This document shows positions 1 to 18,650 of a stretch of DNA of 19,550 bases, piece after piece (position 1 is the first letter of the stretch; the number at the start of each line of letters is the position of its first letter). Both the position numbers and the translations under genes were made by a program. This DNA is from a virus (taxonomy: Duplodnaviria > Heunggongvirae > Uroviricota > Caudoviricetes), in the IMG/VR virus record IMGVR_UViG_2529292888_000015. One strand, written 5' to 3'. The notes under the pieces were generated by a model. It was not told the DNA's origin, searched no databases, and saw only the letters and a program-made list of their open reading frames with translations.

Positions 1-52
1 ATGCCATTTGCTCGTTATTTCTGCATTTTCATAAACGTTGGTTTGGGAGAAG
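1..52. repeat. Left inverted repeat of the invertible segment (contains the presumed invertase crossover site)
   Basis: Perfect 52-nt reverse-complement match to 1883..1934; both alternative fibre ORFs begin inside a repeat and so share the first ~17 codons (MPFARYFCIFINVGLGE). Confidence 0.8.
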
Positions 53-495
53 GTGCTCCAGCTATTGGCGTTCCGTTCTTCTGGCCGTCCGCTGCAATGC
101 CAAATACTGTAATCGACAGCTGGTCCTGTATGGTGTTTTTGAAGTTCAACGGCGCGAAATTCTCTGCCACTGATTATCCTGTGCTGGCGAAAGTGTTTCC
201 TTCGCTGGTATTACCTGAAGCCCGCGGTGATTTCATTCGTATCTGGGATGACGGGCGAGGTGCAGACGGTGGTCGCGAATTATTAAGCTGGCAGGCAGCT
301 ACAAACTTTTCTCAGTTTGCCGGGAATATAGGCGAAGGTGCGGGACACGCAATTAACTTTCATGATGGCATCGCCGGAAATCAGCCAGGATTTTCACGAT
401 TTAATTTCACCAGTAACTCTGTGGGTGATGGTGTGAATTTTGTTGCAGTCAGACCGCGAAATATTGCATTTAACTTTCTGGTGAGGGCTAAATAA
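1..495 (+). CDS. Tail fibre C-terminal variable (receptor-binding) domain, orientation-A tip; 5'-partial, the constant N-terminal part would lie upstream of the window
   Basis: ORF starts inside the left inverted repeat; Gly/Asn/Ser-rich fibre-tip-like sequence; its stop overlaps the downstream Tfa start (TAATG at 493..497). Confidence 0.55.
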   Translation: MPFARYFCIFINVGLGEGAPAIGVPFFWPSAAMPNTVIDSWSCMVFLKFNGAKFSATDYPVLAKVFPSLVLPEARGDFIRIWDDGRGADGGRELLSWQAATNFSQFAGNIGEGAGHAINFHDGIAGNQPGFSRFNFTSNSVGDGVNFVAVRPRNIAFNFLVRAK

Positions 496-1088
496 TGAAA
501 CCTGTTTTTGATGAAAATGGGCTGGCTACAGTGCCGGGCGATATGCGTTGTTTTTATTATGATGCTGAAACATCTGAGTATACGGGCTGGTCTGATGAAT
601 ATATTAATACTGGCGTAAGTATGCCCGCCTGTTCCACTGGTATTGACCCTGGCGAAAACATTCCGGGAAGAGTGGCAGTATTTACAGGTAAGGGATGGAG
701 CCATGAAGAAGACCATCGCAATGAGACTGTTTACTCAATCGAAAATGGCGCAGCTGTTACAGTGGATTATATCGGTGCCATCAAAGACGGTTATGTCACG
801 ATTTCACCGTTAACGCCATACGATAAATGGGATGGTGAGAAATGGGTGACAGACACTGAGGCACAACACAGTGCCGCAGTAGACGCGGCAGAAGCACAGC
901 GCCAATCACTGATTGATGCAGCAATGGCTTCCATTAGTCTGATTCAGCTGAAGTTACAGGCCGGACGGAAACTGACTCAGGCAGAAACAACCCGACTTAA
1001 CGCCGTGCTGGATTACATTGACGCGGTGACGGCAACAGATACCAGCACCGCGCCGGATGTCATCTGGCCTGAACTGCCGGAGGCGTAG
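495..1088 (+). CDS. Tail fibre assembly protein (Tfa / Mu U-like chaperone), orientation A
   Basis: 197 aa; conserved Tfa-like C-terminus (LTQAETTRLNAVLDYIDAVTATDTSTAPDVIWPELP); translationally coupled to the upstream fibre-tip ORF. Confidence 0.8.
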   Translation: MKPVFDENGLATVPGDMRCFYYDAETSEYTGWSDEYINTGVSMPACSTGIDPGENIPGRVAVFTGKGWSHEEDHRNETVYSIENGAAVTVDYIGAIKDGYVTISPLTPYDKWDGEKWVTDTEAQHSAAVDAAEAQRQSLIDAAMASISLIQLKLQAGRKLTQAETTRLNAVLDYIDAVTATDTSTAPDVIWPELPEA

Positions 1089-1512
1089 GCCATTCAATAT
1101 CTGGCGCACCGGAAGTATCGACCAGCTCCAGTGCGTCCAGATAATCCAGCCACAAATTATATTGCGTCAGTTCGTCACCTTTCAGACGACCAATAGCCGC
1201 TTTACCGGGCCATTGCTTACTGTTCATGTATTCGTTGGCCTGGTTAATTAGTAGCTGTCTTTCTGATTCAGTAATTTCAATAAGCTCTTCATGCGTGGGT
1301 GGAGGAATATCTGCCCACGCAGGCAGCCCATCATCTCCGGCAATACGGATTTTTCCTTGTGGCGGTTCAGCCATAAACTCACTGATAATATTTTGATTTA
1401 CTTCCTTAGCGTCTGATAAATCCCATCCCTCTGATTTATATTTATCAATCATATCCACAGGGAAAAAAGCATTATGCCTTGCGCTATAAACATATTCGTC
1501 CATATAAATCAC
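1060..1512 (-). CDS. Tail fibre assembly protein, alternative copy (Tfa', orientation B)
   Basis: 150 aa on the opposite strand, convergent with the first Tfa; same C-terminal motif family (LTQYNLWLDYLDALELVDTSGAPDIEWPTPP). Confidence 0.8.
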   Translation of the reverse strand: MIYMDEYVYSARHNAFFPVDMIDKYKSEGWDLSDAKEVNQNIISEFMAEPPQGKIRIAGDDGLPAWADIPPPTHEELIEITESERQLLINQANEYMNSKQWPGKAAIGRLKGDELTQYNLWLDYLDALELVDTSGAPDIEWPTPPAVQAR

Positions 1513-1523
1513 CCTGAATAAAA

Positions 1524-1937
1524 TTACTCACCAACAGCCCACCAACTGTAATTCATCGATACCGTGTCGCTGGTTGATGACGTTCTGTAAGCAGAATTAA
1601 AGCCGGTTAACGTTGGGCCTTCTGCAGTCATCACGAACCCTCGCCCAGCGCCTAAAGGCGCACCGCCATCACCAGAATGAGTAAGCATGGCGCAGTCCGC
1701 TTTTTTGGGGAAAGGGATGCTGAATGTAATTCTCATTGTTTGCGTCGATAATGTCGGCGTAACCGCACCACGACCATATTGCAGGATTTTCCCGTTGGGT
1801 AATTTCATCCATCCATTACCACTGGCAAAAGAGGCCATGTCCGGTATCTGATTTTCCCCTGTCCCCACATCCCGTTTTGCCGCTTCTCCCAAACCAACGT
1901 TTATGAAAATGCAGAAATAACGAGCAAATGGCATCAT
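1524..1937 (-). CDS. Alternative tail fibre C-terminal variable domain (orientation-B tip), probably silent in this orientation
   Basis: Begins in the right inverted repeat with the same N-terminal peptide as the + strand tip; contains a classic fibre-tip motif (GWMKLPNGKILQYG). The annotated Met is unlikely to be a real start; expression would require inversion. Confidence 0.55.
   Translation of the reverse strand: MMPFARYFCIFINVGLGEAAKRDVGTGENQIPDMASFASGNGWMKLPNGKILQYGRGAVTPTLSTQTMRITFSIPFPKKADCAMLTHSGDGGAPLGAGRGFVMTAEGPTLTGFNSAYRTSSTSDTVSMNYSWWAVGE
1883..1934. repeat. Right inverted repeat of the invertible segment
   Basis: Reverse complement of 1..52, ending 30 bp upstream of the invertase start codon. 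Confidence 0.8.
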
Positions 1938-1963
1938 TCCTGCTTTTGTCAGGGAGATCTACC

Positions 1964-2518
1964 ATGCTTATTGGCTATGTACGTGTGTCAACAAATGACC
2001 AGAACACAGATCTACAACGTAATGCGCTGAACTGTGCAGGATGCGAGCTGATTTTTGAAGACAAGATAAGCGGTACAAAGTCCGAAAGGCCGGGACTGAA
2101 AAAACTGCTCAGGACATTATCGGCAGGTGACACTCTGGTTGTCTGGAAACTGGATCGGCTGGGGCGCAGTATGCGGCATCTGGTCATTCTGGTTGAGGAG
2201 TTGCGCGAACGTGGCGTTAATTTTCGCAGCCTGACGGATGCTATTGATACCAGTACCCCAATGGGGCGCTTTTTCTTTCATGTGATGGGGGCCCTGGCTG
2301 AAATGGAACGAGAACTGATTGTTGAACGAACAAAAGCTGGACTGGAAGCTGCTCGCGCACAGGGACGAATTGGTGGACGTCGTCCCAAACTTACACCAGA
2401 ACAATGGGCGCAGGCCGGACGATTAATTGCAGCAGGAATTCCTCGCCAGAAGGTAGCGATCATCTATGATGTTGGTGTATCGACACTGTATAAGAAGTTT
2501 CCGGCCGGAGATAAATGA
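1964..2518 (+). CDS. pin: Serine recombinase / DNA invertase of the Pin/Gin/Hin/Cin family
   Basis: N-terminus MLIGYVRVSTNDQNTDLQRNAL carries the catalytic serine motif; VVWKLDRLGRS and C-terminal HTH (GIPRQKVAIIYDVGVSTLYKK); AGGGAG RBS at 1951..1956; start taken at the internal ATG at 1964 rather than the track's 1928. Confidence 0.92.
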   Translation: MLIGYVRVSTNDQNTDLQRNALNCAGCELIFEDKISGTKSERPGLKKLLRTLSAGDTLVVWKLDRLGRSMRHLVILVEELRERGVNFRSLTDAIDTSTPMGRFFFHVMGALAEMERELIVERTKAGLEAARAQGRIGGRRPKLTPEQWAQAGRLIAAGIPRQKVAIIYDVGVSTLYKKFPAGDK

Positions 2519-2575
2519 AACCGTAGCACGTCGTATGCAAGATCGTGCTGCGGTTTATGCTTACCACTTGAAGAT

Positions 2576-3445
<870 letters not shown>

Positions 3446-3528
3446 CTAACCCTTTGAATTTACATAGCGCAAAAAGATACCTTTCCTCATAATGTGAGCT
3501 AATTTTATGTTTCGTTTGATGATCGGGT

Positions 3529-3590
3529 CGGTCTCGAAAACCGGAGTAGGGGCAACTCTACCGGGGGTTCAAATCCCCCTCTCTCCGCCA
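3529..3590 (+). other. 3' fragment (~62 nt) of a tRNA-Ser(CGA) gene, from anticodon stem to CCA; presumed prophage att core duplicate
   Basis: cggtctcgaaaaccggagtaggggcaactctaccgggggttcaaatccccctctctccgcca matches the anticodon loop (CGA), long variable arm, T-arm and acceptor 3' strand of enterobacterial tRNA-Ser, recalled from memory. No matching 5' acceptor strand (GGAGAG...) upstream, so it is not a complete tRNA. Confidence 0.7.
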
Positions 3591-4172
3591 CTTTATCAAT
3601 GACTTATCTCCCGACTTCCCGCCTTGCTTTTCCTAAACAGAACAATCGTAGAATATTCTTGAAGGGTTAGATCGTCACTGTTTTCTGTTCGATACTGTGA
3701 CATTCAGCACTTGATTCGCTATGGATCTGACAGGAAGGTTTTGAGCGAAAATCTGCAGTTATTCAGTCGTTTTCTTATCGGTCACCATTATTCTTTTAGA
3801 CATTGATCCTACAAAGCTGCCGCAAAGTTGGTGGTGGGAACTGAAGTTGCGTAGAGAAGGGGTCAATACCCGGAGGCAAACATGGGCTGGCAAAAGTGTA
3901 GCGGTATTAGGCGCAGCTATTTAGCCTAGTTATGTTTTATGAAAACTTGATATCATATAAGTGTCTTACTTATTGGCTGTAAATAAGTTTTTCCTAAGGA
4001 ATTGTTTCTTGAGTATCATTTGTAACTGTAACGGAATTTATAATCCTTTGCTTTATTGTTACGGTATTTTTTATCACACCCTATTTTTAGTGGTTTTTTA
4101 TACTGAAGTTTGGCAAAGTGAACTTTATATACATATACTTCATCCTGGTTTCAGTTAAATTGGGGGGATGAT

Positions 4173-4916
4173 ATGGCAACTACATGTTCAGTTATATTGA
4201 TTTTGGAGTCCTTTGATGTTTATTTCGGAAAAGAGAGTGTGTTTCTGGAGAGAGGTTCATCTGTACTTGTCGACTCTAGCTCTAGAGATTTTTTCCTGAC
4301 ATATCCTGAAAGAGTGATAGTGGCGGATTTTGGCGCTGAGTTTATTAGTCGCTATTTGAAAGCTAATAACTTAAGGGATATTTCTGATTGTAGGGAATAT
4401 CCATCTTATTTAAAAATAAACTTTGCTGACTTCAGTTTAATTAAAGGATTAATTAGTTGGGCTAATCACTGTGCTGAATACATAGAAATTTTTGATGAGT
4501 CTATTGCTTTTACATGTCTCTCTGCATTTTCTTCTGAAAAACAATTTGGAGTATTTCTGTTTGGATGTTTGAAAAGCACAGGGGCTAAAGTTAAAACGAT
4601 TATTCATACGGATTTATCTGCACCATGGCGTCTTAAGGATATATCATCAAGATTATATCTCAGCGAAAGTTTACTAAAGAGGAAATTGAAAGAAGAGGGG
4701 GTATCATTCAGTAAGATCATACTTGATGAGAGGATGCAAATGGCTGAATATTTACTCAGCACTCGTTGTTATCCTATTAGTAAAGTAGCTAAGGTCTGTG
4801 GTTATGCCAGTGTCTCATACTTTACTTATGTATTTAGACGTTATTTTGGTGTTTCTCCAAGTCAATACTCTCAGAGGAGTTCAGAAAGTAAAATTCTTAC
4901 TCACCAGGGAATCTGA
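4173..4916 (+). CDS. AraC/XylS-family transcriptional regulator (AppY/EnvY/Rns-like small activator)
   Basis: 247 aa; C-terminal AraC-type double HTH (SKIILDERMQMAEYLLSTRCYPISKVAKVCGYASVSYFTYVFRRYFGVSPSQY); AT-rich gene with an extremely AT-rich upstream region. Confidence 0.85.
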   Translation: MATTCSVILILESFDVYFGKESVFLERGSSVLVDSSSRDFFLTYPERVIVADFGAEFISRYLKANNLRDISDCREYPSYLKINFADFSLIKGLISWANHCAEYIEIFDESIAFTCLSAFSSEKQFGVFLFGCLKSTGAKVKTIIHTDLSAPWRLKDISSRLYLSESLLKRKLKEEGVSFSKIILDERMQMAEYLLSTRCYPISKVAKVCGYASVSYFTYVFRRYFGVSPSQYSQRSSESKILTHQGI

Positions 4917-5400
4917 TCATTGTTCTTGCCCCCTTATTTCCAGACAGGGGGGGTATCTTAAGTTAACGTTACCCGCTGACGTCGATATTCTCGCGGAGAG
5001 CGATAACCCAACGCACTGTGCGGATGGTTTTCATTGTAATGTTCGATCGCCACTGCAAGATTATGCAATGCCGTTCTTACATTCGGTTTCGGCATGAACG
5101 CGATGTAGTCTTCCTTCATCGTTTTCACGAACCTTTCTGCAATTCCATTACTCTGAGGACTGCTGATTGCCGTTGTGCAGGGCTCCAGATTCAACTCTCT
5201 GGCGAACTGCCGTGTTTCATGCGCTCTATACGCTGAACCGTTATCTGTCAGCCACTGGATGGACTGTTCCGGTACTTTATCGCCAAAGCGTTTTTCTATC
5301 GCTCCTAACATGACATCCTGCACTGTCGCTTTATCGTAACCTCCCGTGCTTGCGGCCCAGTCTATGGCTTCACGATCGCAACAGTCCAGGGCGATTCATC
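4917..5400 (-). mobile_element. IS2-like (IS3 family) insertion sequence remnant: right terminal repeat plus the 3' part of the transposase gene
   Basis: 4920..4945 (ttgcccccttatttccagaca) resembles the IS2 terminal inverted repeat as recalled from memory; adjacent ORF encodes only the C-terminal DDE-domain portion of an IS3-family transposase. Upper boundary is approximate. Confidence 0.6.
4958..5323 (-). pseudogene. Truncated IS3-family (IS2 OrfB-like) transposase, C-terminal fragment only
   Basis: 121-aa ORF with [21 protein letters not shown]...[20 protein letters not shown]...[12 protein letters not shown], the C-terminal rve/DDE region; the ~180 N-terminal residues and orfA are absent. 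Confidence 0.7.
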
Positions 5401-5670
5401 TGGGCCAATCCTTGCTCATAACAGGCATTCACTTCAGTCATGGCAGAAAGGTATGCATGCTGGAGAAGTCGTGAAAGAAAAGAAGACTGCTGCGCCGTTT
5501 GTCGTCACGTTTATCTTCATTGGCTATGCAAGTCGTAATACAAGGTGGGACAAAACTGAGACACATAAGGCCTCGCAATGGCTTGCAAGGCTTTACATGT
5601 TTTGATGTGGTGGGACGTGTGAGCGCAGTGTTGATGGGGTAATGCTTTGAATTAGAAGCGGATTCTTATA

Positions 5671-5716
5671 ATTCGTAATGCGAAGGTCGTAGGTTCGACT
5701 CCTATTATCGGCACCA
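5671..5716 (+). other. 3' fragment (46 nt) of a tRNA-Thr(CGU) gene; left att site of the P4-like element
   Basis: attcgtaatgcgaaggtcgtaggttcgactcctattatcggcacca matches the anticodon loop to CCA end of enterobacterial tRNA-Thr (thrW-like), recalled from memory; the 5' half is missing. Integrase gene begins 163 bp downstream. Confidence 0.75.
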
Positions 5717-5878
5717 TCTCAACTTCCTCAAACGTCCGTATTAGTCCATAAAATCTCTGATTTATAACATTTTTTATTCTTTTAAGTCCATAGTAGTCCG
5801 TAACCATCCAGTAGAATCCGGTACTGAATGTGTATAGGATTGTGTATATGTTCCTGTTCGGTCTGGATTCCTATACAC

Positions 5879-7060
5879 ATGCCTTTAAACGATATGCAGA
5901 TTCGCCGCGCTAAGCCTGAAGCTAAAGCCTATACATTTGGAGATGGGCTAGGGTTGTCATTACTTATAGAACCTAATGGAAGCAAGAGTTGGCGGTTCCG
6001 CTATCGCTATGCCGGCAAACCCAAAATGATCTCGCTTGGTGTTTACCCAACGATCACCCTTGCCGATGCTCGTTCCCGTCGTGATGAAGCTCGAAAACTT
6101 GTGGCAGAAGGAAAGAACCCTAGTGAGGTTCGAAAAGAGCAAAAGCTAGCTATGCAAACAGAGTCAGAGAACGCCTTCGAAAAGATAGCCAGAGAGTGGC
6201 ATCAACTTAAATCTGCTAAATGGTCGGCGGGATATGCATCAGACATCATGGAAGCGTTTAAGAACGACATTTTTCCTTATGTCGGAACAAGGCCTGTGGG
6301 AGAGATTAAACCGCTAGAGCTGCTGAACGTTCTGCGTAAAATTGAGAAACGTGGTGCGTTGGAGAAAATGCGCAAAGTGCGGCAGCGTTGCTCCGAAGTG
6401 TTTCGCTACGCAATTGCAACGGGTAGGGCGGAGTACAATCCTGCGGCTGATCTCTCCAGCGCTCTCGAAGTACACCAATCCAATCATTTCCCATTCCTAA
6501 AAGCTGATGAGATACCTGATTTTCTACGTGCCTTAGAGGGTTACTCCGGGAGTAAGCTTGTCCAGATAGCCACGAAATTACTGATGATTACGGGTGTGAG
6601 AACCATCGAATTACGCGCGGCATTATGGCAAGAATTTGATCTGGATAACGCTATTTGGGAAATTCCTGCTGAAAGGATGAAAATGCGTAGGCCACATCTT
6701 GTGCCCTTATCATCTCAAGCGGTAGATTTACTCAATGAACTCAAGATCATGACAGGGAACTATCGTTATGTTTTTCCAGGGCGGAACGATCCGAATAGGC
6801 CAATGAGCGAAGCGAGTATAAATCAAGCCATTAAGCGTATTGGGTATGGAGGAAAAGTCACTGGACATGGTTTTCGTCATACCCTTTCTACAATCCTGCA
6901 TGAGCAAGGTTTTGAGAGTGCTTGGATTGAAATCCAGTTGGCTCATGTAGATAAAAATTCTATTAGGGGGACTTATAACCATGCTCAATATTTTAGTGGA
7001 AGGAAGTCTATGATGGACTGGTACAGTAATTTGATATTTGAAAGACTAAAAAGGAGTTAA
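5879..7060 (+). CDS. int: P4-type tyrosine integrase
   Basis: N-terminus MPLNDMQIRRAKPEAKAYTFGDGLGLSLLIEPNGSKSWRFRYRYAGK is the typical P4-integrase arm-binding start; catalytic HGFRHTLST (HxxR) and C-terminal RGTYNHAQY tyrosine. Start set at ATG 5879 rather than the track's 5828. Confidence 0.92.
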   Translation: MPLNDMQIRRAKPEAKAYTFGDGLGLSLLIEPNGSKSWRFRYRYAGKPKMISLGVYPTITLADARSRRDEARKLVAEGKNPSEVRKEQKLAMQTESENAFEKIAREWHQLKSAKWSAGYASDIMEAFKNDIFPYVGTRPVGEIKPLELLNVLRKIEKRGALEKMRKVRQRCSEVFRYAIATGRAEYNPAADLSSALEVHQSNHFPFLKADEIPDFLRALEGYSGSKLVQIATKLLMITGVRTIELRAALWQEFDLDNAIWEIPAERMKMRRPHLVPLSSQAVDLLNELKIMTGNYRYVFPGRNDPNRPMSEASINQAIKRIGYGGKVTGHGFRHTLSTILHEQGFESAWIEIQLAHVDKNSIRGTYNHAQYFSGRKSMMDWYSNLIFERLKRS

Positions 7061-7063
7061 TTT

Positions 7064-7480
7064 GTGTCTCAACCACTTTCGGAAATATTGACATGGGATG
7101 ATGAACAATGGGAGGTATTTGTCCATGATTGGCTTATTGTCTGTAAATCAGATGATTACCCGTGGAGCGAACGTTTGGGAGGAGCTGGAGATAAAGGTAG
7201 AGACGTTGTTGGATATAAATCGGATCCTAACGTAGAAGGTTATTCTTGGGATAATTATCAATGCAAACTGTACAAAAAAAGTTTAGGGTTCTCTGATGTT
7301 GTAGTTGAGTTTGGAAAACTTATCTATTTTACTCTGAATGGTGATTATCCCATCCCTCAGAAGTACTTTTTTGTGGCACCCTATGATTTATCTACTACAT
7401 TTTCTAATTTATTGAAAAATAAAAACGAGCTTAAAAAAGCAGTCCTTGATTCATGGGATTCAGCAATTTCAAAAAAATAA
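7064..7480 (+). CDS. Mrr-like PD-(D/E)xK restriction-endonuclease catalytic domain protein; probable N-terminal part of a frameshifted effector gene (LmuA-like)
   Basis: GTG start with AAAAAGGAG RBS overlapping the int stop. GDKGRDVVGY ... DNYQCKLYKK ... KYFFVAPYDLSTTF aligns with the Mrr_cat motif order (GDGGIDG ... VQAKR ... GVFITTSGFT). ORF ends at a TAA immediately after an A7 run. Confidence 0.6.
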   Translation: MSQPLSEILTWDDEQWEVFVHDWLIVCKSDDYPWSERLGGAGDKGRDVVGYKSDPNVEGYSWDNYQCKLYKKSLGFSDVVVEFGKLIYFTLNGDYPIPQKYFFVAPYDLSTTFSNLLKNKNELKKAVLDSWDSAISKK

Positions 7481-8070
7481 CTAAAAAGATTGATATTCCA
7501 TTAGATGATGAAATAAAAAAATATATTGAGGATTTTGATTTTAGTATTTTTTACTCTCTACCCTTATCATTGATTTTAAATGATATTGCAAATACACACC
7601 TTTATTTTAAGTACTTTAACGAGCTGTATGTCGTGAGAATCCCTCCAAATGAAATTCCAACATACAATTCAAAAAAAGAGTCTGTATATGTTAATGCACT
7701 GCTTCAAGCCTATTCAGAGCATGGAAATAAAACTTATAGTTCTTTCTTAGAGCTTGATGATCCATACAGACGACACTTTAATAATAGTAGAAATGATTTT
7801 TATTTTGCATCTTCGCTTGAGGTTTTTGTCCGCGAAGTATTTAAAGATGATGTATTCAAAGCATTGAAATGTTACATTTCATCTTCAATTGAACCCGTCT
7901 TTTATGAAGACCATAATTATGCATTTATTAGGTGTAATGCAGTCTTGAAGCAGGCTGTTCTGACACCAATTGCACATTCAGTACTATCAAAAATATGTGA
8001 AGCAAATGATAAAAAAGGAATATGCCATCATTTGGTTAATGATGGTGAAGTAATTTGGACGGTGAGATAA
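7453..8070 (+). CDS. Hypothetical protein; probable C-terminal part of the same effector gene, in a different frame
   Basis: Overlaps the previous ORF by 28 nt; one extra A in the 7471..7477 run would fuse the two into a ~335-aa protein. Stop overlaps the next start (TAATG at 8068..8072). Very AT-rich. Confidence 0.55.
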   Translation: MGFSNFKKITKKIDIPLDDEIKKYIEDFDFSIFYSLPLSLILNDIANTHLYFKYFNELYVVRIPPNEIPTYNSKKESVYVNALLQAYSEHGNKTYSSFLELDDPYRRHFNNSRNDFYFASSLEVFVREVFKDDVFKALKCYISSSIEPVFYEDHNYAFIRCNAVLKQAVLTPIAHSVLSKICEANDKKGICHHLVNDGEVIWTVR

Positions 8071-8528
8071 TGGTTAGAATTTATAATTCAAGTTTAGAAG
8101 TGGCATGTCGAATGGCGAAAGTGCTCGTCGCTATTTATCCTTCTTCATTAAGCCTTGAACGGCTTATTTGTTTTGATTTTATTTTAGTAAATCTTAAGGA
8201 TTTTTTACCTGAAGAGATTAGTCTTCATCCTCCAATACCCCGTAGAGATGCTCAGTTAGCCCTAAAACGAGAGATTGTTTTAGAATCATTGGCTTTGTTG
8301 CAAGGCTATGAACTAGCCTCAAAAATTTATACACATCGTGGTTTTGTATATAAAGCTTCTGAAAAAACATATGCATTTACAAATTCTCTACATAATGAAT
8401 ATGTTGCGCAGATGGAGCATAATATAAATTTGGTGGTTAAGTTATATAGTGATATTCCTGATGAGCAGTTGCAATCAATTATAAAAAATAAAATTGGCAA
8501 ATATGATATGGAATTTAATTATGAATGA
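8070..8528 (+). CDS. Small predicted alpha-helical protein (~152 aa), middle gene of the cargo operon (LmuC/DdmB-like position)
   Basis: ATG at 8070 coupled to the upstream stop; stop TGA at 8526..8528 overlaps the downstream ATG at 8521 (ATGAATGA). No recognisable catalytic motif. Confidence 0.6.
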   Translation: MVRIYNSSLEVACRMAKVLVAIYPSSLSLERLICFDFILVNLKDFLPEEISLHPPIPRRDAQLALKREIVLESLALLQGYELASKIYTHRGFVYKASEKTYAFTNSLHNEYVAQMEHNINLVVKLYSDIPDEQLQSIIKNKIGKYDMEFNYE

Positions 8529-9153
8529 CAATTTTTTTACGTTCAGAAAAATAAAGGTAACCGGATTCAATAAATTAGATGCTATAATTGAATTTGGTTC
8601 TAAATTGACTATTTTATATGGTGGTTCTGACTCTGGAAAAACATACATATATTATTTGATTCGATATTTATTAGGGAGTGAAAAACTAAAAAATAAAGAT
8701 ATCGATCATGCTCAAGGTTATGATTTAGCCTATCTGGAATTTAATTTTCAAGGTAGGGTAATGACAATTGAGAGGTCTCTTCAGGATAGCGCCCATTACA
8801 GATTATATGATTCGAGCATTGAAAATGTTAGTGAAGCTAATCTGTTGATGGTTTTTTCCAAAAGTGCTTCGTCTAAAAAGAGTTTTTCATCATACTTTTA
8901 TGGTAGGTTGAATTTCAAAGAGGCTAAAGTAAGAACAAACTTAAGTAATACTCTTCATAAATTTAATCTTAATAATGTTTTTGAATTTTTTTGTATTGAT
9001 GAATTAAGAGTGTTAACTGAGAAGTCGTTAATTCTTTCTGATATTCCTAGCGAGGAGACAAAAAGAAAGTCTGAATTTAAATTCCTTTTAACTCAGAGAG
9101 ATGATACTAACTCCTTAGCAGAAAAACCAAATAAAAAAGCAAGATATTTTTAA
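8521..9153 (+). CDS. SMC/Rad50/RecF-like ABC ATPase, N-terminal head with Walker A; apparently terminated by an in-frame TAA
   Basis: FRKIKVTGFNKLDAIIEFGSKLTILYGGSDSGKTYIYYLIRYLLG is the SMC_N/AAA_23-type N-terminal strand plus Walker A (GGSDSGKT). The next ORF is in the same frame, separated only by TAA 9151..9153. Confidence 0.65.
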   Translation: MNDNFFTFRKIKVTGFNKLDAIIEFGSKLTILYGGSDSGKTYIYYLIRYLLGSEKLKNKDIDHAQGYDLAYLEFNFQGRVMTIERSLQDSAHYRLYDSSIENVSEANLLMVFSKSASSKKSFSSYFYGRLNFKEAKVRTNLSNTLHKFNLNNVFEFFCIDELRVLTEKSLILSDIPSEETKRKSEFKFLLTQRDDTNSLAEKPNKKARYF

Positions 9154-9183
9154 AAAAATCAAATTGCAAATATTTATGAGGAA

Positions 9184-9774
9184 TTGAAAGCGCAATTAAT
9201 TTATCCTGAATATGATCAAGTCATTGTTTCAAGAGAACTTGAGAAAGTAGAGCAAGATATTGAATCATCGAAAGATATATTGAAAGGTATTGTTGATGCA
9301 CTTGATGATAAGAAGCAATTATTAAAAGAGTTAAGTGATGAATTATATTCAATCAGTGACAGGGAAAAATACTTATCATTACTCATTGAAAGATTTAGTC
9401 TTCTTAAAGACCAATACTTTATAGATCTACAAAGAATAGATGTTGTATCACAGGCGAATTTCTATTTAAATAATTTTGCAGATATTTATTGTGAGTTCTG
9501 TAATACACCGCAAAAAAAAGAAAATGAAATATCATATGATGATTGTTTTTTGTCGTGTAATGCAGAAAAATTGAAAATCAAAAGCCAGCTGAAAGGATTA
9601 ATTGAATCAATCGGATCTAATGTTCGCGAACATGAATTAATTATGTTAAGAAAAAATGATGTTAATGAAATTTATCAATCAGAAAAAAGTGATTTTAAGA
9701 CGTTAGAAGATAAAAATATAAAACAATACATTCATCTCTTGAATCACTTTATGAATATAAAGACAATCTTTTAA
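9184..9774 (+). CDS. Coiled-coil segment with a central CxxC (CEFC), probable middle part of the same SMC-like ATPase
   Basis: Charged heptad-like sequence (ELEKVEQDIESSKDILKGIVDALDDKKQLLKELSDEL...); no in-frame ATG start (track uses TTG at 9184); same frame as 8521..9153. Confidence 0.5.
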   Translation: MKAQLIYPEYDQVIVSRELEKVEQDIESSKDILKGIVDALDDKKQLLKELSDELYSISDREKYLSLLIERFSLLKDQYFIDLQRIDVVSQANFYLNNFADIYCEFCNTPQKKENEISYDDCFLSCNAEKLKIKSQLKGLIESIGSNVREHELIMLRKNDVNEIYQSEKSDFKTLEDKNIKQYIHLLNHFMNIKTIF

Positions 9775-10340
9775 TGGATCACACAAAACATAGCATTCTA
9801 TCTTCATTACAAGATAAAGAAGATGATGTTGACGAACTTAAATACTCCGCCGAGGACTTTGACTCCTTAACAGTAGCTGATTTGTATGATATAGAAATAG
9901 CGATGCAAGACTTTTTGAATGATATAAATTTTGAAAATTCTAAAGATAACAAAGTGCGATTTGACGAAGATACATATGACTTTAATATCAATGGGAAACG
10001 CCGAGGAATGTTTGGTAAAGGTACCCGTGCAGTAATGCATGCTATATTTACCATTTGCTTTGCGGAATTTTTATCAAGAAAAGGGAATCCATTCATTGGA
10101 TTTGTTGTGCTTGATAGTCCATTAGTGACGCACTTTGATAAAGATAGAGGGGGTTCTCTATCGGATGTTAATAGCGTCAGTCTCAGTGATTCATTTTATC
10201 ACGCATTAATCAAAAGGGACTATAATTTCCAGATTGTAATTCTTGAGAATAAAGGTCCGACGTTCCAAATAAAAATTAATGATGCAAATAAAATCCATAA
10301 CTTAAATAAGAATGGAAGCTCTGGTTTTTATCCTGTTTAA
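9774..10340 (+). CDS. C-terminal head of an SMC-like ABC ATPase (signature-like and Walker B-like motifs, both non-canonical)
   Basis: GMFGKGTRAVMHAIFTICFAEFL ... FIGFVVLDSPL ... FQIVILEN occupy the positions of the signature, Walker B and H-loop of SMC-type heads but are degenerate (DS instead of DE). Start overlaps the upstream stop (TAATG); one extra A in the runs at 9712..9723 would fuse it to the preceding ORF. Confidence 0.55.
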   Translation: MDHTKHSILSSLQDKEDDVDELKYSAEDFDSLTVADLYDIEIAMQDFLNDINFENSKDNKVRFDEDTYDFNINGKRRGMFGKGTRAVMHAIFTICFAEFLSRKGNPFIGFVVLDSPLVTHFDKDRGGSLSDVNSVSLSDSFYHALIKRDYNFQIVILENKGPTFQIKINDANKIHNLNKNGSSGFYPV

Positions 10341-10370
10341 TACATTAAAAATATAACTGCTAATTGGGGT

Positions 10371-10396
10371 GCTCGAAATTATATTTCGTTTCGAGC
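10371..10396 (+). terminator. Hairpin downstream of the cargo operon (possible terminator, no clear U-tract)
   Basis: gctcgaaa (10371..10378) pairs with tttcgagc (10389..10396), beginning 31 bp after the stop at 10340. Confidence 0.3.
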
Positions 10397-10749
10397 GCTC
10401 AGTTCATTTCTAAATAATTTGCAAAATTATTTTGGGTACTTTCGCCTCTACACTTCCTTCGGGTGGTTCCACAATAATGGATCTCACCGGCGTTTGATAT
10501 TTTATAATCTAACCCCTTAGCGCGCGCAGCCCCCCACGCCTGCTCGCTTCGCTTAACAGACTGGTTTTCATGCATTCCGCAAATCGTCTCAGAAGCCACC
10601 ACACAAGGGCTTTCGCGTCAAAAATGGTGCATGAGAATCATGCGTTTTCATGCGCTATAGACATGCACTCATGCGCTCTCAGGCCAGCCAGGGAAAAGGC
10701 GTAAAAAATCCCAGTACTGGACCGGGATTACGTGGGCTTTTTTTGCTAA

Positions 10750-11022
10750 TCAGACAGGAATTTGCTGACGGCTTGACAGCTTTGACGCGGAGCCATAGCG
10801 ATTGAGAGTTTGCTGTTGTTTTTCCGGCATTTGTGCTTTCTCTGATTCCTGTTCATTGCGCCGGGGCTTCATGATTATCGTATCCACACTTTCCAGTGCG
10901 GTAAATGTGTAGGAACATTCAAGATTCTGGCACTGATACCATGAGCGTTTAACCGATGGTGCTTCATAGGCGGAGGTTCTGGCGTGTGCCGTCGTACCGC
11001 ATTCGGGACATTTAAGTGCCAT
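10750..11022 (-). CDS. Ogr/Delta-family zinc-finger late-gene transcriptional activator
   Basis: MALKCPECGTTAHARTSAYEAPSVKRSWYQCQNLECSYTFTALESV follows the Ogr pattern C..C..AHARTS...QC.N..CS.TF..ESV; GGAG RBS inside the end of the upstream gene. Confidence 0.85.
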   Translation of the reverse strand: MALKCPECGTTAHARTSAYEAPSVKRSWYQCQNLECSYTFTALESVDTIIMKPRRNEQESEKAQMPEKQQQTLNRYGSASKLSSRQQIPV

Positions 11023-11027
11023 TAATA

Positions 11028-11579
11028 TTACTCCTGCATGCCGTTAATGTAATCCAGACGTTGCTGAAAGCGCAGTTGTTGTGCAGGGGTGTAAGAGCTC
11101 TGGCAATCACGAACCATCATGGGGTCAGGCATCACACCGGATTCATCCAGAATCATACGATAATCCCCGGCAATTTCAGGCGGTGTTATTGCCAGCTGGC
11201 GAACCAGAGCATTGCGTAATATACGGGACGCAACGTCAACCCCTCCGCGCCCCTTCAGGAACGGAGCCAGTGCAGATGTCAGGGCTGCTCCATTCGCCTG
11301 CATAAAATTGCTGAGAGCGTCTTCTGTGCAGGCCTCCATCAGTTGATGCTGCGAGTAAATGCATTCGCGCGCAGCACAGTTAATTTGCCATTTCAGCACA
11401 TCCAGATGTTCCCGCTGTAATTCGAGCTGTCGAGCATAATCTGCTGGTTTTTCCATGGCAGTGAGGAGTGATTCTATCTGTTGTTCAACGGCTTTTCGGC
11501 TCTCACTATGTCCAGCCCACAGAATACGGGCATTTCTAAAACTGATAAGCGCTTGGTCTGGAGTGACTCGGGCCATCAT
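11028..11579 (-). CDS. psu: P4 Psu-like protein (polarity suppression / capsid decoration), assignment tentative
   Basis: 183 aa, close to P4 Psu size; sits in the late operon directly upstream of the Ogr/Delta gene and is coupled to the preceding gene (ATGA overlap at 11576..11579). Similarity to Psu is from imperfect memory. Confidence 0.5.
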   Translation of the reverse strand: MMARVTPDQALISFRNARILWAGHSESRKAVEQQIESLLTAMEKPADYARQLELQREHLDVLKWQINCAARECIYSQHQLMEACTEDALSNFMQANGAALTSALAPFLKGRGGVDVASRILRNALVRQLAITPPEIAGDYRMILDESGVMPDPMMVRDCQSSYTPAQQLRFQQRLDYINGMQE

Positions 11580-12328
11580 ACTGCTTTCTCCTTCTCAGCA
11601 CGTTCCTGACGAACCTTCATTTTATGCATAGCTGCTGGAGAGAGTTTATTACTGAAATCCAGACGGGCCGCATAATCCGGGGCAACTCCCGCCAGTTTAA
11701 ACACGGGGTCCTGTTCGGGCATCGCATCGTTAGTCAGAGCCGGTCTGGTGATATGTTTATGAATAAAATCTTTCAGCAGTGTGTCCGGGTCATTAACTGA
11801 ATGCACCACACCGACAACTGCGCTGGCTTCCCTGCCCATTGTTGATTTGAGCAGGCTTAGTGTCTGGATTAGTGCTTTTCCATGCGACTGCATAAAATCT
11901 TCCCAGATTTGTTTTGCGCGAATACCCACAAGGGTGTCGTGCGCGTGGATATACTTTCCGGCTAATTCCGCAGCCTCCTGCGGCAAAAGTGCATTTTCGC
12001 TTTCCTGAGCCGCCAGCAGCTCATCAAAATCCTCAAGCGTTTCTCGTCCCAGCGCAATTTCCGTGCGCAGTTTTTTCATTTCCTTTGAGACTACGCCCTG
12101 ACTTTCACGAAATAGCGTGCGCCACTCCTCATTCAGGGCGTTCGTCGTGGCTTCCATTTCAGCGCGGCGCTGGCGGATTGTCGCAATATTATCCGCTGCC
12201 GCTTTTTGCTGACGACGTGCTTCAAGCCATGCAGATTTGGTGGCATTCACTTTCTCAAGCGCCTGTTGCGTCGAAACAGGGATAGAAATTTCAACGATCG
12301 GGTTATTGTTCTGTTCTGGGATTGTCAT
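11576..12328 (-). CDS. First gene of the P4-like late operon; Sid-like (capsid size determination) by size and position
   Basis: 250-aa predicted helical protein, first gene of the leftward operon, divergent from the alpA/primase operon. No motif-level confirmation. Confidence 0.4.
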   Translation of the reverse strand: MTIPEQNNNPIVEISIPVSTQQALEKVNATKSAWLEARRQQKAAADNIATIRQRRAEMEATTNALNEEWRTLFRESQGVVSKEMKKLRTEIALGRETLEDFDELLAAQESENALLPQEAAELAGKYIHAHDTLVGIRAKQIWEDFMQSHGKALIQTLSLLKSTMGREASAVVGVVHSVNDPDTLLKDFIHKHITRPALTNDAMPEQDPVFKLAGVAPDYAARLDFSNKLSPAAMHKMKVRQERAEKEKAV

Positions 12329-12398
12329 GTCAGCACCTAGTGGTTTGTCGTGGTGTCAATTGTGCTGTGATGCATACAAAGCTGCCATTGAACGCCAT

Positions 12399-12416
12399 TG
12401 TGCGAGCGACAAGACA
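12399..12416 (-). promoter_or_regulatory. Candidate Ogr/Delta-responsive late-promoter element (TGT-N12-ACA) upstream of the late operon
   Basis: tgt gcgagcgacaag aca; centre lies ~80 bp upstream of the 12328 start codon, compatible with a -55 activator site and a ~25-nt leader. Confidence 0.3.
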
Positions 12417-12495
12417 AAGACTGAACCGCCCCGGACCTCTTTTGGCTAGCCAGAAAAGGCCTCGTTTAACTAAGGCTGTTTCAGACTTACCTTAA

Positions 12496-12710
12496 CTATT
12501 CACTACTATTCACTTAGGTAAAAAAAATAGGTAATACAGAAGGTTATAAGGTGAAGGGTTGGCATGGCAGTATTCATCGACTGTTCATAACTGTTCACAT
12601 GGGAATAAAATTATTTATGGTATTTTTTCATAATGGGTGGTTTTTTTATTCCTCGTAGCTATTTGTTTTTTGCTCCTCACCACTATTCACCCTTATTCAG
12701 GAGTATTCAA
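12496..12710. repeat. Iteron-like array: eight YTRTTCAY octamers in three 10-bp-phased clusters with AT-rich spacers (candidate ori/crr-type alpha-binding region)
   Basis: ctattcac at 12496 and 12506; gtattcat 12570, ctgttcat 12581, ctgttcac 12591; ctattcac 12683, ttattcag 12693, gtattcaa 12703. P4 ori and crr are known to carry TGTTCACC repeats bound by alpha. Confidence 0.45.
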
Positions 12711-13261
12711 CAGGCACATAAATAGACTGCATGTTTTTGCCGGGGAATAACATTTTCGCCTCTGGCCATGGTGTTGCATTTCATACTGATTTTTATAAAA
12801 CTAGATCTGTCCGGTTCTTTATGGATTCATTCGGATATATTTTACGATTTAAGGTGATGTTATTTAATATCAAGGTTTTTATGCAGGCCCAATGTTTATA
12901 AGTTGGATGCGATTCAAAAATATGCCCGGAAATTGGGGCCTGCAATGCAAGGCCTCGTGTAGAAGTTGTACTGCCTTGCTGTATTGGCGGTGGGGTTAGC
13001 ACTATCAGGTGCAATGACCCATAGGATAGTAAACCCTGGGTGAATGGTAGTTCCTATTAATGCTCCTGTATTTATAGTCCGCAGGCATGGTATTTATTAT
13101 GTCATTTTATATGGTTTAATCGGGCTTTAAATTCCATAAAATCAATATGTGACGCTAAATAAAAAATGCGTGCGCAGGTGGTTTATATACACATAATAAG
13201 GAACTACCTGAACCCGGATAAATTCATCCGGACTGTTGTGGAAATTAAAGAGGGTAGATAA

Positions 13262-13522
13262 ATGCGTAATATTTCTGTGTCTGCGCCAGCTCCTGCTGCG
13301 CCATTATTTCCTGTATCGAACCATCATGAGCGATTTTTACGCCTGCCTGAGGTGATGCACTTATGCGGGTTGTCCCGTTCGACCGTTTACGACCTGATCA
13401 GCCGCGATGCGTTTCCGAAGCAGATCCCGCTTGGCGGTAAAAATGTCGCCTGGGCACAGTCTGAGGTCAGCGCATGGATGGCGGACCGCATCAGCGCCCG
13501 TGGGCGGGGATGTGATGCATGA
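13262..13522 (+). CDS. alpA: AlpA / Vis-family phage transcriptional regulator (MerR-like HTH, excisionase-like)
   Basis: [50 protein letters not shown] is the AlpA signature; the true start may be downstream of the annotated ATG. Confidence 0.8.
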
Positions 13523-13881
13523 TGATACCTGCATACATTAAATACCTTTATTCTGGCTTGCTTACTGTCGTCATTTCCAGGTATAGTTTTTCCGCTGTCG
13601 CAAAATCGGCAGCCGGAATTGGCGTTCCGTATAACTTATTGGCGACAATTGACGCCCCTTGCGTCTTTTTTTACGTCGTAGCTCAGGCACAACCATTTTC
13701 AGGGCTGTGGTGTTTATGCTTACACCATGGTTCTATCGAGATAATGGTAGTCCGGGCGGGGCAGCCTTCGGGCTGGCCGGTTTCCAATAAGGCCGGTTAC
13801 GCCAACCCCGTTCGGGCTGCCACCAGTGAAATTGGCGTTTCCGGTGGTAGCAATAACCGCTACTTATTGGAGGCTGCCATC

Positions 13882-14076
13882 ATGGCTACAATCCTCACCC
13901 CGTCACACCCGCAATATGTCTTTGTGTTTGCCGCAATCCGCCGTGCTGACACTCACCCCCGCATCTGTATGCTTCGCACTGTCTCCTGCGATGAGCATTC
14001 CGCGCGCCGTTTGCTAGTCCGAGATTATGTACTCTCCCTTTCTGCACGGCTGCCTGCCGGGGAGGTGACGCTATGA
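13882..14076 (+). CDS. Small hypothetical protein (64 aa), first of three translationally coupled small ORFs upstream of the primase
   Basis: ATG at 13882 with GGAGG 8 nt upstream; stop overlaps the next ATG (ATGA at 14073..14076). The track's longer 13519 start gives an implausible N-terminal extension. Confidence 0.4.
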
Positions 14077-14294
14077 ACCAGTTTGAGATTTCCTACGACG
14101 ATGTTGTAAGGCTGAAACATTTACGCAATGTGGGTGAGTATGTAACTGGCATGGCAGCCCTGCAGGACTGTTATGAAAAGCCAGCAGGTGCCCAATGCGA
14201 ACAACTGGTTTCCCTCATTTATCTGATGACAGAGCAACTGGATGGAGTGGTGCAACGCTGCCATGACGACCTGATGAATGCGGAGGTGGCCTGA
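14073..14294 (+). CDS. Small hypothetical protein (73 aa), P4-like early operon
   Basis: Coupled at both ends by overlapping stop/start codons (ATGA at 14073, TGATG at 14292..14296); GGAGG RBS for the next gene lies within its end. Confidence 0.55.
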
Positions 14295-14539
14295 TGATAT
14301 GCTGTGAATCTCTTCTGGCACTTCGTGCCGCTCTGTATCGCCGTGCCATAGCCCGCGAGCTGGAAGGGTTCTATCTGCGCCAGCATGGGCAGCAAAGAGG
14401 GCTGGAAATTGCCTGCGCGTTGCTTTCGGATCTGATGGAGTCGGGGCCGCTTAAAGCCTGTCCGGTTCTCTCACTGCTCGGAATGACGGTCATGGATGAA
14501 CTTTGTTCCCGTCACCTCAACAAACCAGCGCTGCACTAA
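14294..14539 (+). CDS. Small hypothetical protein (81 aa), P4-like early operon
   Basis: ATG 14294 preceded by GGAGGTGG; stop at 14537..14539 lies within the primase RBS region. Confidence 0.55.
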
Positions 14540-14552
14540 GGAGGGCCGCACA

Positions 14553-16886: not shown

Positions 16887-16892
16887 CTGACC

Positions 16893-16915
16893 TAAGACCG
16901 GCTGTGCCGGTCTTA
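16893..16915 (+). terminator. Strong GC-rich hairpin directly after the primase stop (probable terminator, no U-tract)
   Basis: taagaccggc tgt gccggtctta: perfect 10-bp stem with 3-nt loop beginning 7 nt after the TAA at 16884..16886. Confidence 0.45.
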
Positions 16916-17018
16916 AATCCGCTACAGGAAATTATCTCAAAATATATATCGATAAAATTTAAAAGTTATATGCTAAGGCGTCAGCGGAAAATGCATCTAA
17001 TTCATTGTTAGATGATGT

Positions 17019-18505: not shown

Positions 18506-18524
18506 GGTTCCTATTATCGCACCA
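18506..18524 (+). repeat. Degenerate direct repeat of the tRNA-Thr 3' end; candidate attR of the P4-like element
   Basis: ggttcctattatcgcacca versus ggttcgactcctattatcggcacca at 5692..5716: shared ggttc, cctattatcg and cacca in order, with two small gaps. Confidence 0.45.
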
Positions 18525-18650
18525 TTTAAATCAAGTAGTTACCCCATATTTAAATACACCACGTTTCCTCCTGTGCCGCATTTGTGCCATTGTAACCCTG
18601 GCAATTAATCAAAATACTGTTCTGACATCAGGCAATGCAGGTGCAGACAT

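What the first reader, a model, noticed from the sequence alone, without database searches (positions are those of the whole stretch)
1..1964. Invertible tail-fibre switch with unusually long 52-bp perfect inverted repeats
Two alternative fibre-tip and Tfa cassettes face each other between 52-bp perfect inverted repeats next to a Pin-family invertase. Both tips share their first ~17 codons because each begins inside a repeat. The + strand cassette (1..1088) is presumably joined to the constant fibre gene upstream of the window, so the 1524..1937 cassette is silent. Perfect identity over 52 bp indicates recent or actively maintained inversion.
Basis: partly seen in the sequence, partly recalled or inferred. 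Interest (0 to 1): 0.4.

Follow-up and report, generated by a model that had tools for sequence, protein, structure and literature searches.

The report
Known Pin fibre switch; long repeat artefactual
This is the well-known Pin invertase tail-fibre switch of a decayed E. coli O157:H7 prophage; finished genomes show only an ordinary 15-20 bp repeat there, so the 'unusually long' 52-bp repeat most likely arose because the sequence carries one junction from each orientation of the switch.

Summary
The 52-nt perfect inverted repeat (1-52 / 1883-1934), the two facing tip+Tfa cassettes and the adjacent Pin gene are all in the window. From base 28 on, the window is 99.97% identical to prophage remnant Sp1 (CP-933H) plus the P4-like Sp2 of E. 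coli O157:H7 Sakai.

In Sakai, strain 9000, K-12 e14 and the intact myovirus vB_EcoM-606R2, the repeat at this switch is only 20-21 nt with one mismatch (15-16 nt perfect, TTGGTTTGGGAGAAG). These are the canonical 26-bp pix crossover sites.

Window bases 1-37 are the reverse complement of the flank between the segment and pin. That makes the left end the right-hand junction of the flipped state, while the right end is the unflipped junction. No complete E. coli genome among 5,426 shows both in one contiguous match. A gapped draft scaffold does carry both, and a metagenome contig shows the same hairpin-type end.

The long repeat is therefore most likely an assembly product of a mixed-orientation culture. 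That same mixture is evidence the switch is active, and so are finished O157 genomes: 235 join the constant part to tip 1 and 263 to tip 2, including near-clonal isolates in opposite states.

Pin is 97% identical to e14 PinE. Already known; low interest.

The parts
1..37 (+). Reverse-complement copy of the flank that lies between the invertible segment and pin (bases 1898-1934). It equals the right-hand junction of the flipped state and is not the constant fibre region.
   Evidence: window 1-52 equals the reverse complement of Sakai L001 13855-13906. Sakai has ...GGCTCTTCAAAACC at this position; flipped-state genomes carry pin'-flank'-tip1 collinear with window 1-1907.
26..51 (.). Left 26-bp pix-type site as it appears in the window (TTTTCATAAACG TT GGTTTGGGAGAA), with the crossover dinucleotide at 38-39. 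The outer half-site is that of the right site. In the Sp1 copies read here (Sakai, strains 9000 and 107) and in phage vB_EcoM-606R2 it is CTCTTCAAAACC; K-12 e14 has CTCTCGAAAACC.
   Evidence: site layout compared with Mu gix.
38..52 (.). The genuine inverted repeat, left arm (TTGGTTTGGGAGAAG, 15 nt perfect). It encodes LGLGE at the constant/variable boundary.
   Evidence: The same 16-nt repeat is reported for the e14 P segment in PMC12529663.
1..495 (+). ORF of a 13-codon leader (MPFARYFCIFINV) plus fibre tip 1 (from LGLGE; homologous to the e14 StfE tip). Fused to the 117-aa constant part (through LGLGE), it gives the 264-aa fibre of Sakai.
   Evidence: 44% identity to e14 stfE; the 264-aa fibre is 97% identical to that of myovirus vB_EcoM-606R2.
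495..1088 (+). Tail fibre assembly chaperone for tip 1 (TfaE-like, 197 aa).
   Evidence: Caudo_TAP, E = 2.3e-27; 65% identity to K-12 TfaE.
1060..1503 (-). Tail fibre assembly chaperone for tip 2 (TfaP-like, 147 aa). It converges on the other tfa gene and overlaps it by 29 nt.
   Evidence: Caudo_TAP, E = 2.7e-30; 54% identity to K-12 TfaP.
1524..1934 (-). ORF of the same 13-codon leader plus fibre tip 2 (gp53-like C-terminal domain); Sakai yfdL/ECs_0283. It is the analogue of e14 StfE2.
   Evidence: Gp53-like_C, E = 9.7e-13.; fused to the constant part in strain 9000 (236 aa).
1884..1909 (.). Right 26-bp pix site (TTCTCCCAAACC AA CGTTTATGAAAA), with the crossover dinucleotide at 1896-1897.
   Evidence: identical to the e14 site and aligned with Mu gixR.
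1964..2518 (+). pin: a 184-aa serine DNA invertase, 97% identical to K-12 e14 PinE.
   Evidence: Resolvase E = 8e-52, HTH_7 E = 1e-15; 178/184 identical.
1985..2048 (.). Candidate Fis-dependent recombinational enhancer inside the 5' end of pin. Two G-N13-C 15-mers lie at 1985-1999 and 2034-2048, about 95 bp from the right pix centre.
   Evidence: scan; the block is near-identical in e14 pinE and strongly conserved in Mu gin. This rests on homology only.

Best explanation
The region is the Pin/P-segment-type invertible tail-fibre switch of the E. coli O157:H7 prophage remnant Sp1 (CP-933H). It is a mosaic sibling of the K-12 e14 P segment.

**Inferred mechanism**, by homology to Hin, Gin and Pin. 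Pin dimers bind two 26-bp pix sites in inverted orientation. A Fis-bound enhancer in the 5' end of pin assembles the invertasome. Both sites are cut at the central dinucleotide, one half rotates 180 degrees, and the ends are religated. This flips a segment of about 1.85 kb.

**Consequence of flipping.** One of two receptor-binding tips becomes fused in frame, at ...LGLGE, to the 117-aa constant N-terminal part of a short fibre gene (117 aa counted through LGLGE). Its cognate Tfa chaperone follows in the same direction. The other tip becomes attached to a 13-codon leader from the pin-side flank.

**The 52-bp repeat.** It is not part of this biology. The true repeat is 15 nt perfect. The window carries the flipped-state junction (pin flank + tip 1) at its left end and the unflipped junction (tip 2 + pin flank) at 1883-1934. 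The most likely cause is that a culture containing both orientations was assembled from short reads, so the contig ends in a hairpin-like copy of the pin flank.

**Context.** Sp1 has lost all head, tail and baseplate genes, so the switch no longer serves a virion of its own.
For: **Identity of the locus.** Window 28-19550 is collinear with Sakai Sp1+Sp2 at 99.97%, differing by 2 SNPs and one 78-nt deletion.

**True repeat length.** It is 20-21 nt at 95% (15-16 nt perfect) in:
- Sakai
- strain 9000 and K-12 e14
- eight further flipped-state loci
- phage vB_EcoM-606R2

PMC12529663 gives the same 16-nt repeat for e14.

**Window 1-52 is the reverse complement of the right site plus its outside flank**.

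**Junction pairing.** Every ungapped locus in which both junctions were found pairs constant+tip1 with tip2+flank, or constant+tip2 with flank+tip1. Only the window and a scaffold with a 20-N gap (L013) mix the two. The best of 5,426 complete genomes all match from base 28, and none from base 1.

**Independent example.** Metagenome contig L022 starts with a 95-nt perfect repeat that runs to its first base and includes the reverse complement of the pin start codon.

**Same-lineage assembly break.** A draft contig sharing the window's rare 81-aa allele begins at about window 1904, that is at the right pix site.

**Switching in nature.** Junction counts in complete genomes, at >=80% query coverage:

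| Junction | Genomes |
|---|---|
| constant+tip1 | 235 |
| constant+tip2 | 263 |
| flank+tip1 | 248 |

 Strains 107 (unflipped) and 110 (flipped) share an IS1203 insertion at the same point inside the segment, and their chromosome lengths differ by 1 bp.

**Pin itself.** Resolvase+HTH_7 domains, 97% identity to PinE, and the QAGRL Fis-contact motif (PMC3798978). The enhancer block is conserved with Mu gin.
Against: - I could not retrieve the source contig or its reads, so the artefact is inferred rather than seen.
- The window is cut at gene boundaries (one search shows the right end is the yagP start codon). What lies left of base 1 is therefore unknown.
- A real long inverted repeat, collapsed by a short-read assembler, would give the same contig-end picture.
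- The enhancer and the cleavage positions are assigned by homology only.
Confidence: 0.85

Rival explanations
1. The 52-bp (or longer) repeat is real in the source strain. An inverted duplication of the pin-side flank, possibly with a second inverted pin copy, has replaced the constant fibre region to the left of the segment. Both tips would then carry the same leader.
For: The window sequence itself. A real long repeat would also break a short-read assembly at this point. L022 shows the same layout with at least 95 nt.
Against: No complete E. coli genome among 5,426 matches the window contiguously from base 1; all the best matches start at base 28. The 25 unflipped and 30 flipped genomes listed do not overlap. 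The window differs from Sakai by only 2 SNPs and one deletion elsewhere. Pin-type invertases make inversions, not inverted duplications. Both junctions exist separately at 100% identity in the two normal states.
Confidence: 0.08
2. One reading: a natural switch whose crossover repeats are 52 bp. The upstream constant fibre gene would end in MPFARYFCIFINVGLGE, and the long perfect identity would be maintained by frequent inversion.
For: A 52-nt perfect repeat and a shared 17-residue start of both tip ORFs.
Against: The constant part ends in ...DGTVKTALQNLGLGE in Sp1 and ...DGTVKTALENLGLGE in phage vB_EcoM-606R2. e14 StfP has a different N-terminus but the same end...TALENLGLGE. If the repeat continued leftwards, an in-frame TAG would lie 10 codons upstream of base 1 (sequence), so no fibre gene could read into it. 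In Mu the extra identity lies inside the segment and not on the invertase side.
Confidence: 0.02
3. The switch is real and has been kept in this gene-poor remnant because it was co-opted by the host. The leader+tip ORF next to pin would act as a phase-variable anti-phage protein, like e14 StfE2.
For: The module is intact although Sp1 has lost all other structural genes. The leader is 15/17 identical to that of e14 stfE, and tip 2 has the same gp53-like domain as StfE2. PMC12529663 reports that StfE2 blocks T2 adsorption. A PD-T4-3 defence gene sits next to pin.
Against: There are no expression or phenotype data for O157. Promoter-like sites in the region are at chance level. The tips are only 35-44% identical to those of e14. 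This explanation concerns function and is compatible with the best explanation of the structure.
Confidence: 0.25

Closest known systems
e14 P segment with PinE of E. coli K-12 (stfP-tfaP-tfaE-stfE-pinE)
   Same: - The gene order is the same.
- The crossover core TTGGTTTGGGAGAAG and the right 26-bp site are identical.
- Pin is 97% identical.
- The 13-codon leader next to pin is the same.
- The tfa genes are convergent and overlapping.
- It also sits in a defective prophage.

(PMC12529663, PMC4272514.)
   Different: - The tips and Tfa proteins are mosaic variants, 35-65% identical.
- The first ~90 aa of the constant fibre part are unrelated.
- The segment has 1830 nt between its repeats, against 1797.
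- The neighbouring cargo gene is PD-T4-3 (GIY-YIG) instead of mcrA.
- Sp1 lacks even the baseplate genes that e14 retains.
Phage Mu G segment with Gin
   Same: A serine invertase lies next to two facing tip+chaperone cassettes (S/U and S'/U'). It has 26-bp sites with the same AAACC-NN-GGTTT core. The enhancer region in the 5' end of the invertase gene is conserved at the DNA level.
   Different: - The Mu segment is 3 kb.
- Its repeat is 41 nt at 93%, and the identity extends into the segment.
- Both outer half-sites are identical in Mu.
- Mu is a complete phage in which the switch sets host range.
Salmonella Hin / H segment
   Same: A Fis- and enhancer-dependent serine invertase acts on 26-bp sites, with the enhancer about 100 bp from the nearest site (PMC3798978). 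The Fis-contact residues are conserved in Pin.
   Different: Hin flips a promoter for flagellin genes. It does not swap the coding ends of a fibre gene.
Phage P1 C segment with Cin (from my own knowledge)
   Same: A Din-family invertible fibre segment, and the only classical one with long inverted repeats (about 0.6 kb).
   Different: In P1 the long repeats are real, lie inside the segment boundaries, and are seen in finished genomes. Here the extra repeat lies outside on the invertase side and is absent from finished genomes.

Membership tests
Fis/enhancer-dependent serine DNA invertase switches (Hin/Gin/Cin/Pin) | A small serine recombinase with an N-terminal resolvase catalytic domain and a C-terminal HTH. 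| tested here: met
   PF00239, E = 8.3e-52, and PF02796, E = 1.1e-15, on window 1964-2518; 97% identity to PinE, with the N-terminal motif YVRVST.
Fis/enhancer-dependent serine DNA invertase switches (Hin/Gin/Cin/Pin) | Two 26-bp imperfectly palindromic sites in inverted orientation with identical central dinucleotides. | tested here: met
   Sites at 26-51 and 1884-1909, with centres TT/AA. Sakai, strain 9000, e14 and phage 606R2 have the same sites, with a different left outer half. They align with Mu gix.
Fis/enhancer-dependent serine DNA invertase switches (Hin/Gin/Cin/Pin) | A recombinational enhancer with two Fis sites in cis, inside the 5' end of the invertase gene. | tested here: inconclusive
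   Two G-N13-C 15-mers at 1985 and 2034 are 49 bp apart. The block is strongly conserved with e14 pinE and Mu gin. Fis sites are degenerate and no binding was tested.
Fis/enhancer-dependent serine DNA invertase switches (Hin/Gin/Cin/Pin) | Invertase residues that contact Fis (Hin Q151, R154, L155). | tested here: met
   Pin has EQWAQAGRL at residues 146-154, so Q150, R153 and L154 match with an offset of 1 (sequence; residues named in PMC3798978).
Fis/enhancer-dependent serine DNA invertase switches (Hin/Gin/Cin/Pin) | Both orientations of the segment occur. | tested here: met
   Searches (junction counts; flipped loci), and 60 against 23 (a clonal pair in opposite states).
e14-type P segment fibre cassette | A constant fibre N-terminal part ending in ...LGLGE is joined at the left crossover. 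| tested here: not met
   Not met in the window as given, because bases 1-37 are the pin flank. Met in all finished genomes of the same locus.
e14-type P segment fibre cassette | Two convergent tip+Tfa cassettes with an StfE-like tip/TfaE and a gp53-like tip/TfaP. | tested here: met
Invertible segments with genuinely long inverted repeats (P1 C-segment type) | A long repeat present on both sides of the segment in finished genomes. | tested here: not met
   All the best matches among 5,426 complete genomes start at base 28, and none from base 1. The perfect repeat is 14-16 nt in 16 of the 18 other repeat pairs examined; the two exceptions are the gapped scaffold L013 and the contig end of L022.

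The most novel reading that the evidence does not exclude
The intact fibre-tip switch has been retained in a prophage remnant that has no virion genes left. Finished O157:H7 genomes are split about evenly between the two states. The switch may therefore be a domesticated, phase-variable anti-phage device. In that reading the short leader+tip ORF beside pin, the analogue of e14 StfE2, would mask phage receptors in one orientation, and it would work alongside the adjacent PD-T4-3 defence gene.
Probability: 0.2. Interest if true: 0.45.

Novelty: already known. Interest (0 to 1): 0.1.

Why it matters
It matters little for biology. The Sp1/CP-933H pinE module is already annotated in the O157:H7 reference genomes, and its mechanism is textbook.

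The practical lesson is methodological. An actively inverting segment assembled from short reads can end a contig with a hairpin-like copy of the outside flank. That creates a spurious long perfect inverted repeat and a spurious shared N-terminus. Scans that rank inversion switches by repeat length will be misled by such contig ends.

Conversely, a contig that carries one junction of each state is a cheap indicator that both orientations were present in the sequenced culture.

Tried and rejected
**Finding the source contig, to see what lies left of base 1**
- A scan of viral contigs with the rare deletion junction at 14344 found nothing.
- Looking up the rare 81-aa allele returned only 5 of its 16 contigs. 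One of them starts at about window 1904.
- The 'SNP 3622' pattern used for the single genome and metagenome scans turned out to be the common E. coli allele, so it was not diagnostic.

**Inferring the assembler's k-mer size from the repeat length** (52 here, 95 in L022). I dropped this. The window is trimmed to gene boundaries, and 95 fits no usual k.

**Promoter and terminator scan of 1-2700.** Counts were at the level of shuffled sequence, so it gives no evidence for or against expression of the leader+tip ORFs.

**Other repeats reported in the region.**
- The 18-nt repeat 1007-1024/1133-1150 simply reflects the conserved C-terminal ends of the two convergent Tfa genes. It is also present in e14, strain 9000 and phage 606R2.
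- The 23-nt, 78% repeat 1658-1680/2184-2206 looks like a chance match.

**Literature.** Johnson's review of serine invertases (PMC4384473) is not held. I used PMC3798978 instead.
Full report
**1. The observation**

The repeat is in the window as described. Arms 1-52 and 1883-1934 are 52 nt long, 100% complementary and 1830 nt apart. The left arm is truncated by the window start.

Between the arms lie two facing cassettes:
- tip 1 (1-495, +) with a Tfa (495-1088, +)
- tip 2 (1524-1934, -) with a Tfa (1060-1503, -)

A 184-aa serine recombinase follows at 1964-2518. Pfam gives Caudo_TAP for both Tfa proteins, Gp53-like_C for tip 2, and Resolvase plus HTH_7 for the recombinase. Both tip ORFs begin with MPFARYFCIFINVGLGE.

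**2. Where the window comes from**

From base 28 to its end, the window is collinear with E. coli O157:H7 Sakai at 99.97% identity. It differs by two SNPs and one 78-nt deletion.

It covers the right part of prophage remnant Sp1 (CP-933H in EDL933), all of the P4-like Sp2, and ends exactly at the start codon of yagP. The window is therefore trimmed to gene boundaries, and its left end is a called gene start.

Sp1 keeps only these genes:
- a decayed integrase, cI, cro and cII
- broken O and P genes
- the fibre module and pin
- a GIY-YIG gene, an AraC-type regulator and an IS remnant

No head, tail or baseplate gene is left.

The fibre gene itself is complete. Its 264-aa product is 97% identical to the fibre of the intact myovirus vB_EcoM-606R2, where it follows the baseplate genes.

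**3. The real repeat is short**

The inverted repeat flanking the segment is AAACCTTGGTTTGGGAGAAG / CTTCTCCCAAACCAACGTTT in Sakai, strain 9000 and vB_EcoM-606R2: 20 nt with one mismatch, 15 nt perfect. K-12 e14 has the same repeat one base longer (21 nt, 16 nt perfect). A recent paper gives the same 16-nt repeat for the e14 P segment (PMC12529663).

These are 26-bp sites of the Hin/Gin/Pin type:
- left: CTCTTCAAAACC TT GGTTTGGGAGAA
- right, read in reverse: TTTTCATAAACG TT GGTTTGGGAGAA

The inner halves are identical and the outer halves differ.

**4. What the extra 37 nt is**

Window 1-37 is the exact reverse complement of 1898-1934, the flank between the segment and pin. Flank-reversed plus core plus tip 1 is precisely the right-hand junction of the flipped state.

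That junction occurs at 100% identity in many finished O157:H7 genomes. In every one I read, pin lies to its left and the constant region joined to tip 2 lies at the other end. The window's other junction, tip 2 plus flank plus pin, belongs to the unflipped state.

So the window carries one junction from each state. Three results show how unusual that is:
- Among all loci held, every ungapped locus in which both junctions were found pairs the junctions in one of the two legitimate ways. Only the window and a draft scaffold with a 20-N gap (L013) mix them.
- The best matches among 5,426 complete E. coli genomes all start at base 28 of the query, and none at base 1.
- The listed unflipped and flipped genomes do not overlap.

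**5. Why I call it an assembly product**

For any k-mer longer than 16, sequence spanning flank+core+tip1 can only come from flipped molecules. Sequence spanning tip2+core+flank can only come from unflipped molecules. A contig containing both must come either from a culture that held both states or from a molecule with an inverted duplication of the pin flank.

The first option is expected for an active switch, and other assemblies show its traces:
- Metagenome contig L022 begins with a 95-nt perfect repeat that reaches its first base and includes the reverse complement of the pin start codon.
- A draft contig sharing the window's rare 81-aa allele starts at about window 1904, at the right site.
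- L013 shows both junction types on either side of a gap.

The second option has no example among finished genomes, and Pin-type enzymes would not produce it.

If the repeat did continue leftwards, an in-frame TAG would lie 10 codons upstream of base 1, so no fibre gene could read into it.

I could not retrieve the source contig or its reads. The artefact therefore remains an inference, to which I give about 85%.

**6. The switch is active**

Junction counts in complete genomes, at >=80% query coverage:

| Junction | Genomes |
|---|---|
| constant+tip1 | 235 |
| constant+tip2 | 263 |
| flank+tip1 | 248 |
| tip2+flank | 830 |

The last junction also occurs in other prophages.

Cattle isolates 107 and 110 make the point within a clone. 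Their chromosome lengths are 5,442,851 and 5,442,850 bp. Both carry IS1203 inserted at the same point of tfa1, inside the segment. The segment is in opposite orientations in the two. Inversion has therefore happened within a clone since that insertion.

**7. Mechanism**

What is shown:
- Pin is 97% identical to e14 PinE.
- It has the QAGRL residues that contact Fis in Hin (PMC3798978).
- The 5' end of pin, with two G-N13-C 15-mers at 1985 and 2034, is almost identical in e14 and strongly conserved in Mu gin. According to the literature cited in PMC3798978, the gin enhancer lies inside the invertase gene.

What is inferred by homology:
- Pin dimers sit on the two sites and a Fis-bound enhancer assembles the invertasome.
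- Cleavage is at the central TT/AA, followed by a 180-degree rotation and religation.

The result is that one tip and its Tfa are read from the constant part, giving a 264-aa or 236-aa fibre. The other tip hangs on a 13-codon leader next to pin.

**8. Comparison and novelty**

This is the e14 P-segment design. It has the same sites, the same leader and a nearly identical Pin, but mosaic tips and Tfa proteins at 35-65% identity.

Mu G is the same kind of switch with a 41-nt repeat, but there the extra identity lies inside the segment.

The module is annotated in the reference genomes as pinE, tfaE, yfdK and yfdL. Nothing here is new. The only unusual feature claimed, the repeat length, is most likely not real.

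**9. One open point**

For e14, the leader+gp53-like-tip protein made after inversion (StfE2) is reported to block phage T2 adsorption (PMC12529663). The O157 ORF at 1524-1934 is its structural analogue and sits next to a PD-T4-3 defence gene.

Whether the O157 switch has such a host function is untested. Promoter scans say nothing either way.

Noticed in passing
window 2576-3349 (- strand): The GIY-YIG gene immediately after pin is a full-length match to the single-gene anti-phage system PD-T4-3 (PADLOC, E = 2e-140). It occupies the position where K-12 e14 carries mcrA.
   Followed up: partly
window 7064-10340 (+ strand): The P4-like prophage Sp2 carries a decayed Lamassu defence system. LmuA is split into two ORFs (7064-7480 and 7453-8070), LmuC lies at 8055-8528, and LmuB is split into three ORFs (8494-9153, 9184-9774 and 9774-10340).
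   Followed up: partly
window 14294-14539: The DUF5375 gene has a 78-nt in-frame deletion relative to Sakai (81 aa here). The exact protein was found on only 16 contigs, so it marks a narrow sublineage.
   Followed up: partly
window 5671-5717: A 47-nt exact copy of the 3' end of tRNA-Thr thrW lies between Sp1 and Sp2, just upstream of the Sp2 integrase. It is presumably the shared attachment site. No tRNA gene is present in the window.
   Followed up: partly
L022 1-95 and 1953-2047 (IMGVR_UViG_3300029068_000018): A 4.3-kb metagenome contig of a related Pin switch starts with a 95-nt perfect inverted repeat that runs to its first base and includes the reverse complement of the pin start codon. 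This is the same hairpin-type contig end as in the window, with a third kind of tip.
   Followed up: partly
L013 6001-9283 (DS571135.1): A draft O157:H7 scaffold with a 20-N gap holds a flipped-state junction fragment (pin-flank-tip1, 634 nt) followed by the complete unflipped locus. This indicates that both orientations were present in the sequenced culture.
   Followed up: partly
L157 2347-3656 and L008 6874-8188: Cattle isolates 107 and 110 share an IS1203 insertion that disrupts tfa1 at window position ~874, yet hold the segment in opposite orientations. The switch keeps inverting even with one chaperone gene destroyed.
   Followed up: yes
window 1060-1088: The two convergent tfa genes overlap by 29 nt at their 3' ends and share a conserved C-terminal motif. 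That motif produces the 18-nt imperfect inverted repeat at 1007-1024/1133-1150. The same arrangement occurs in e14 and phage vB_EcoM-606R2.
   Followed up: partly
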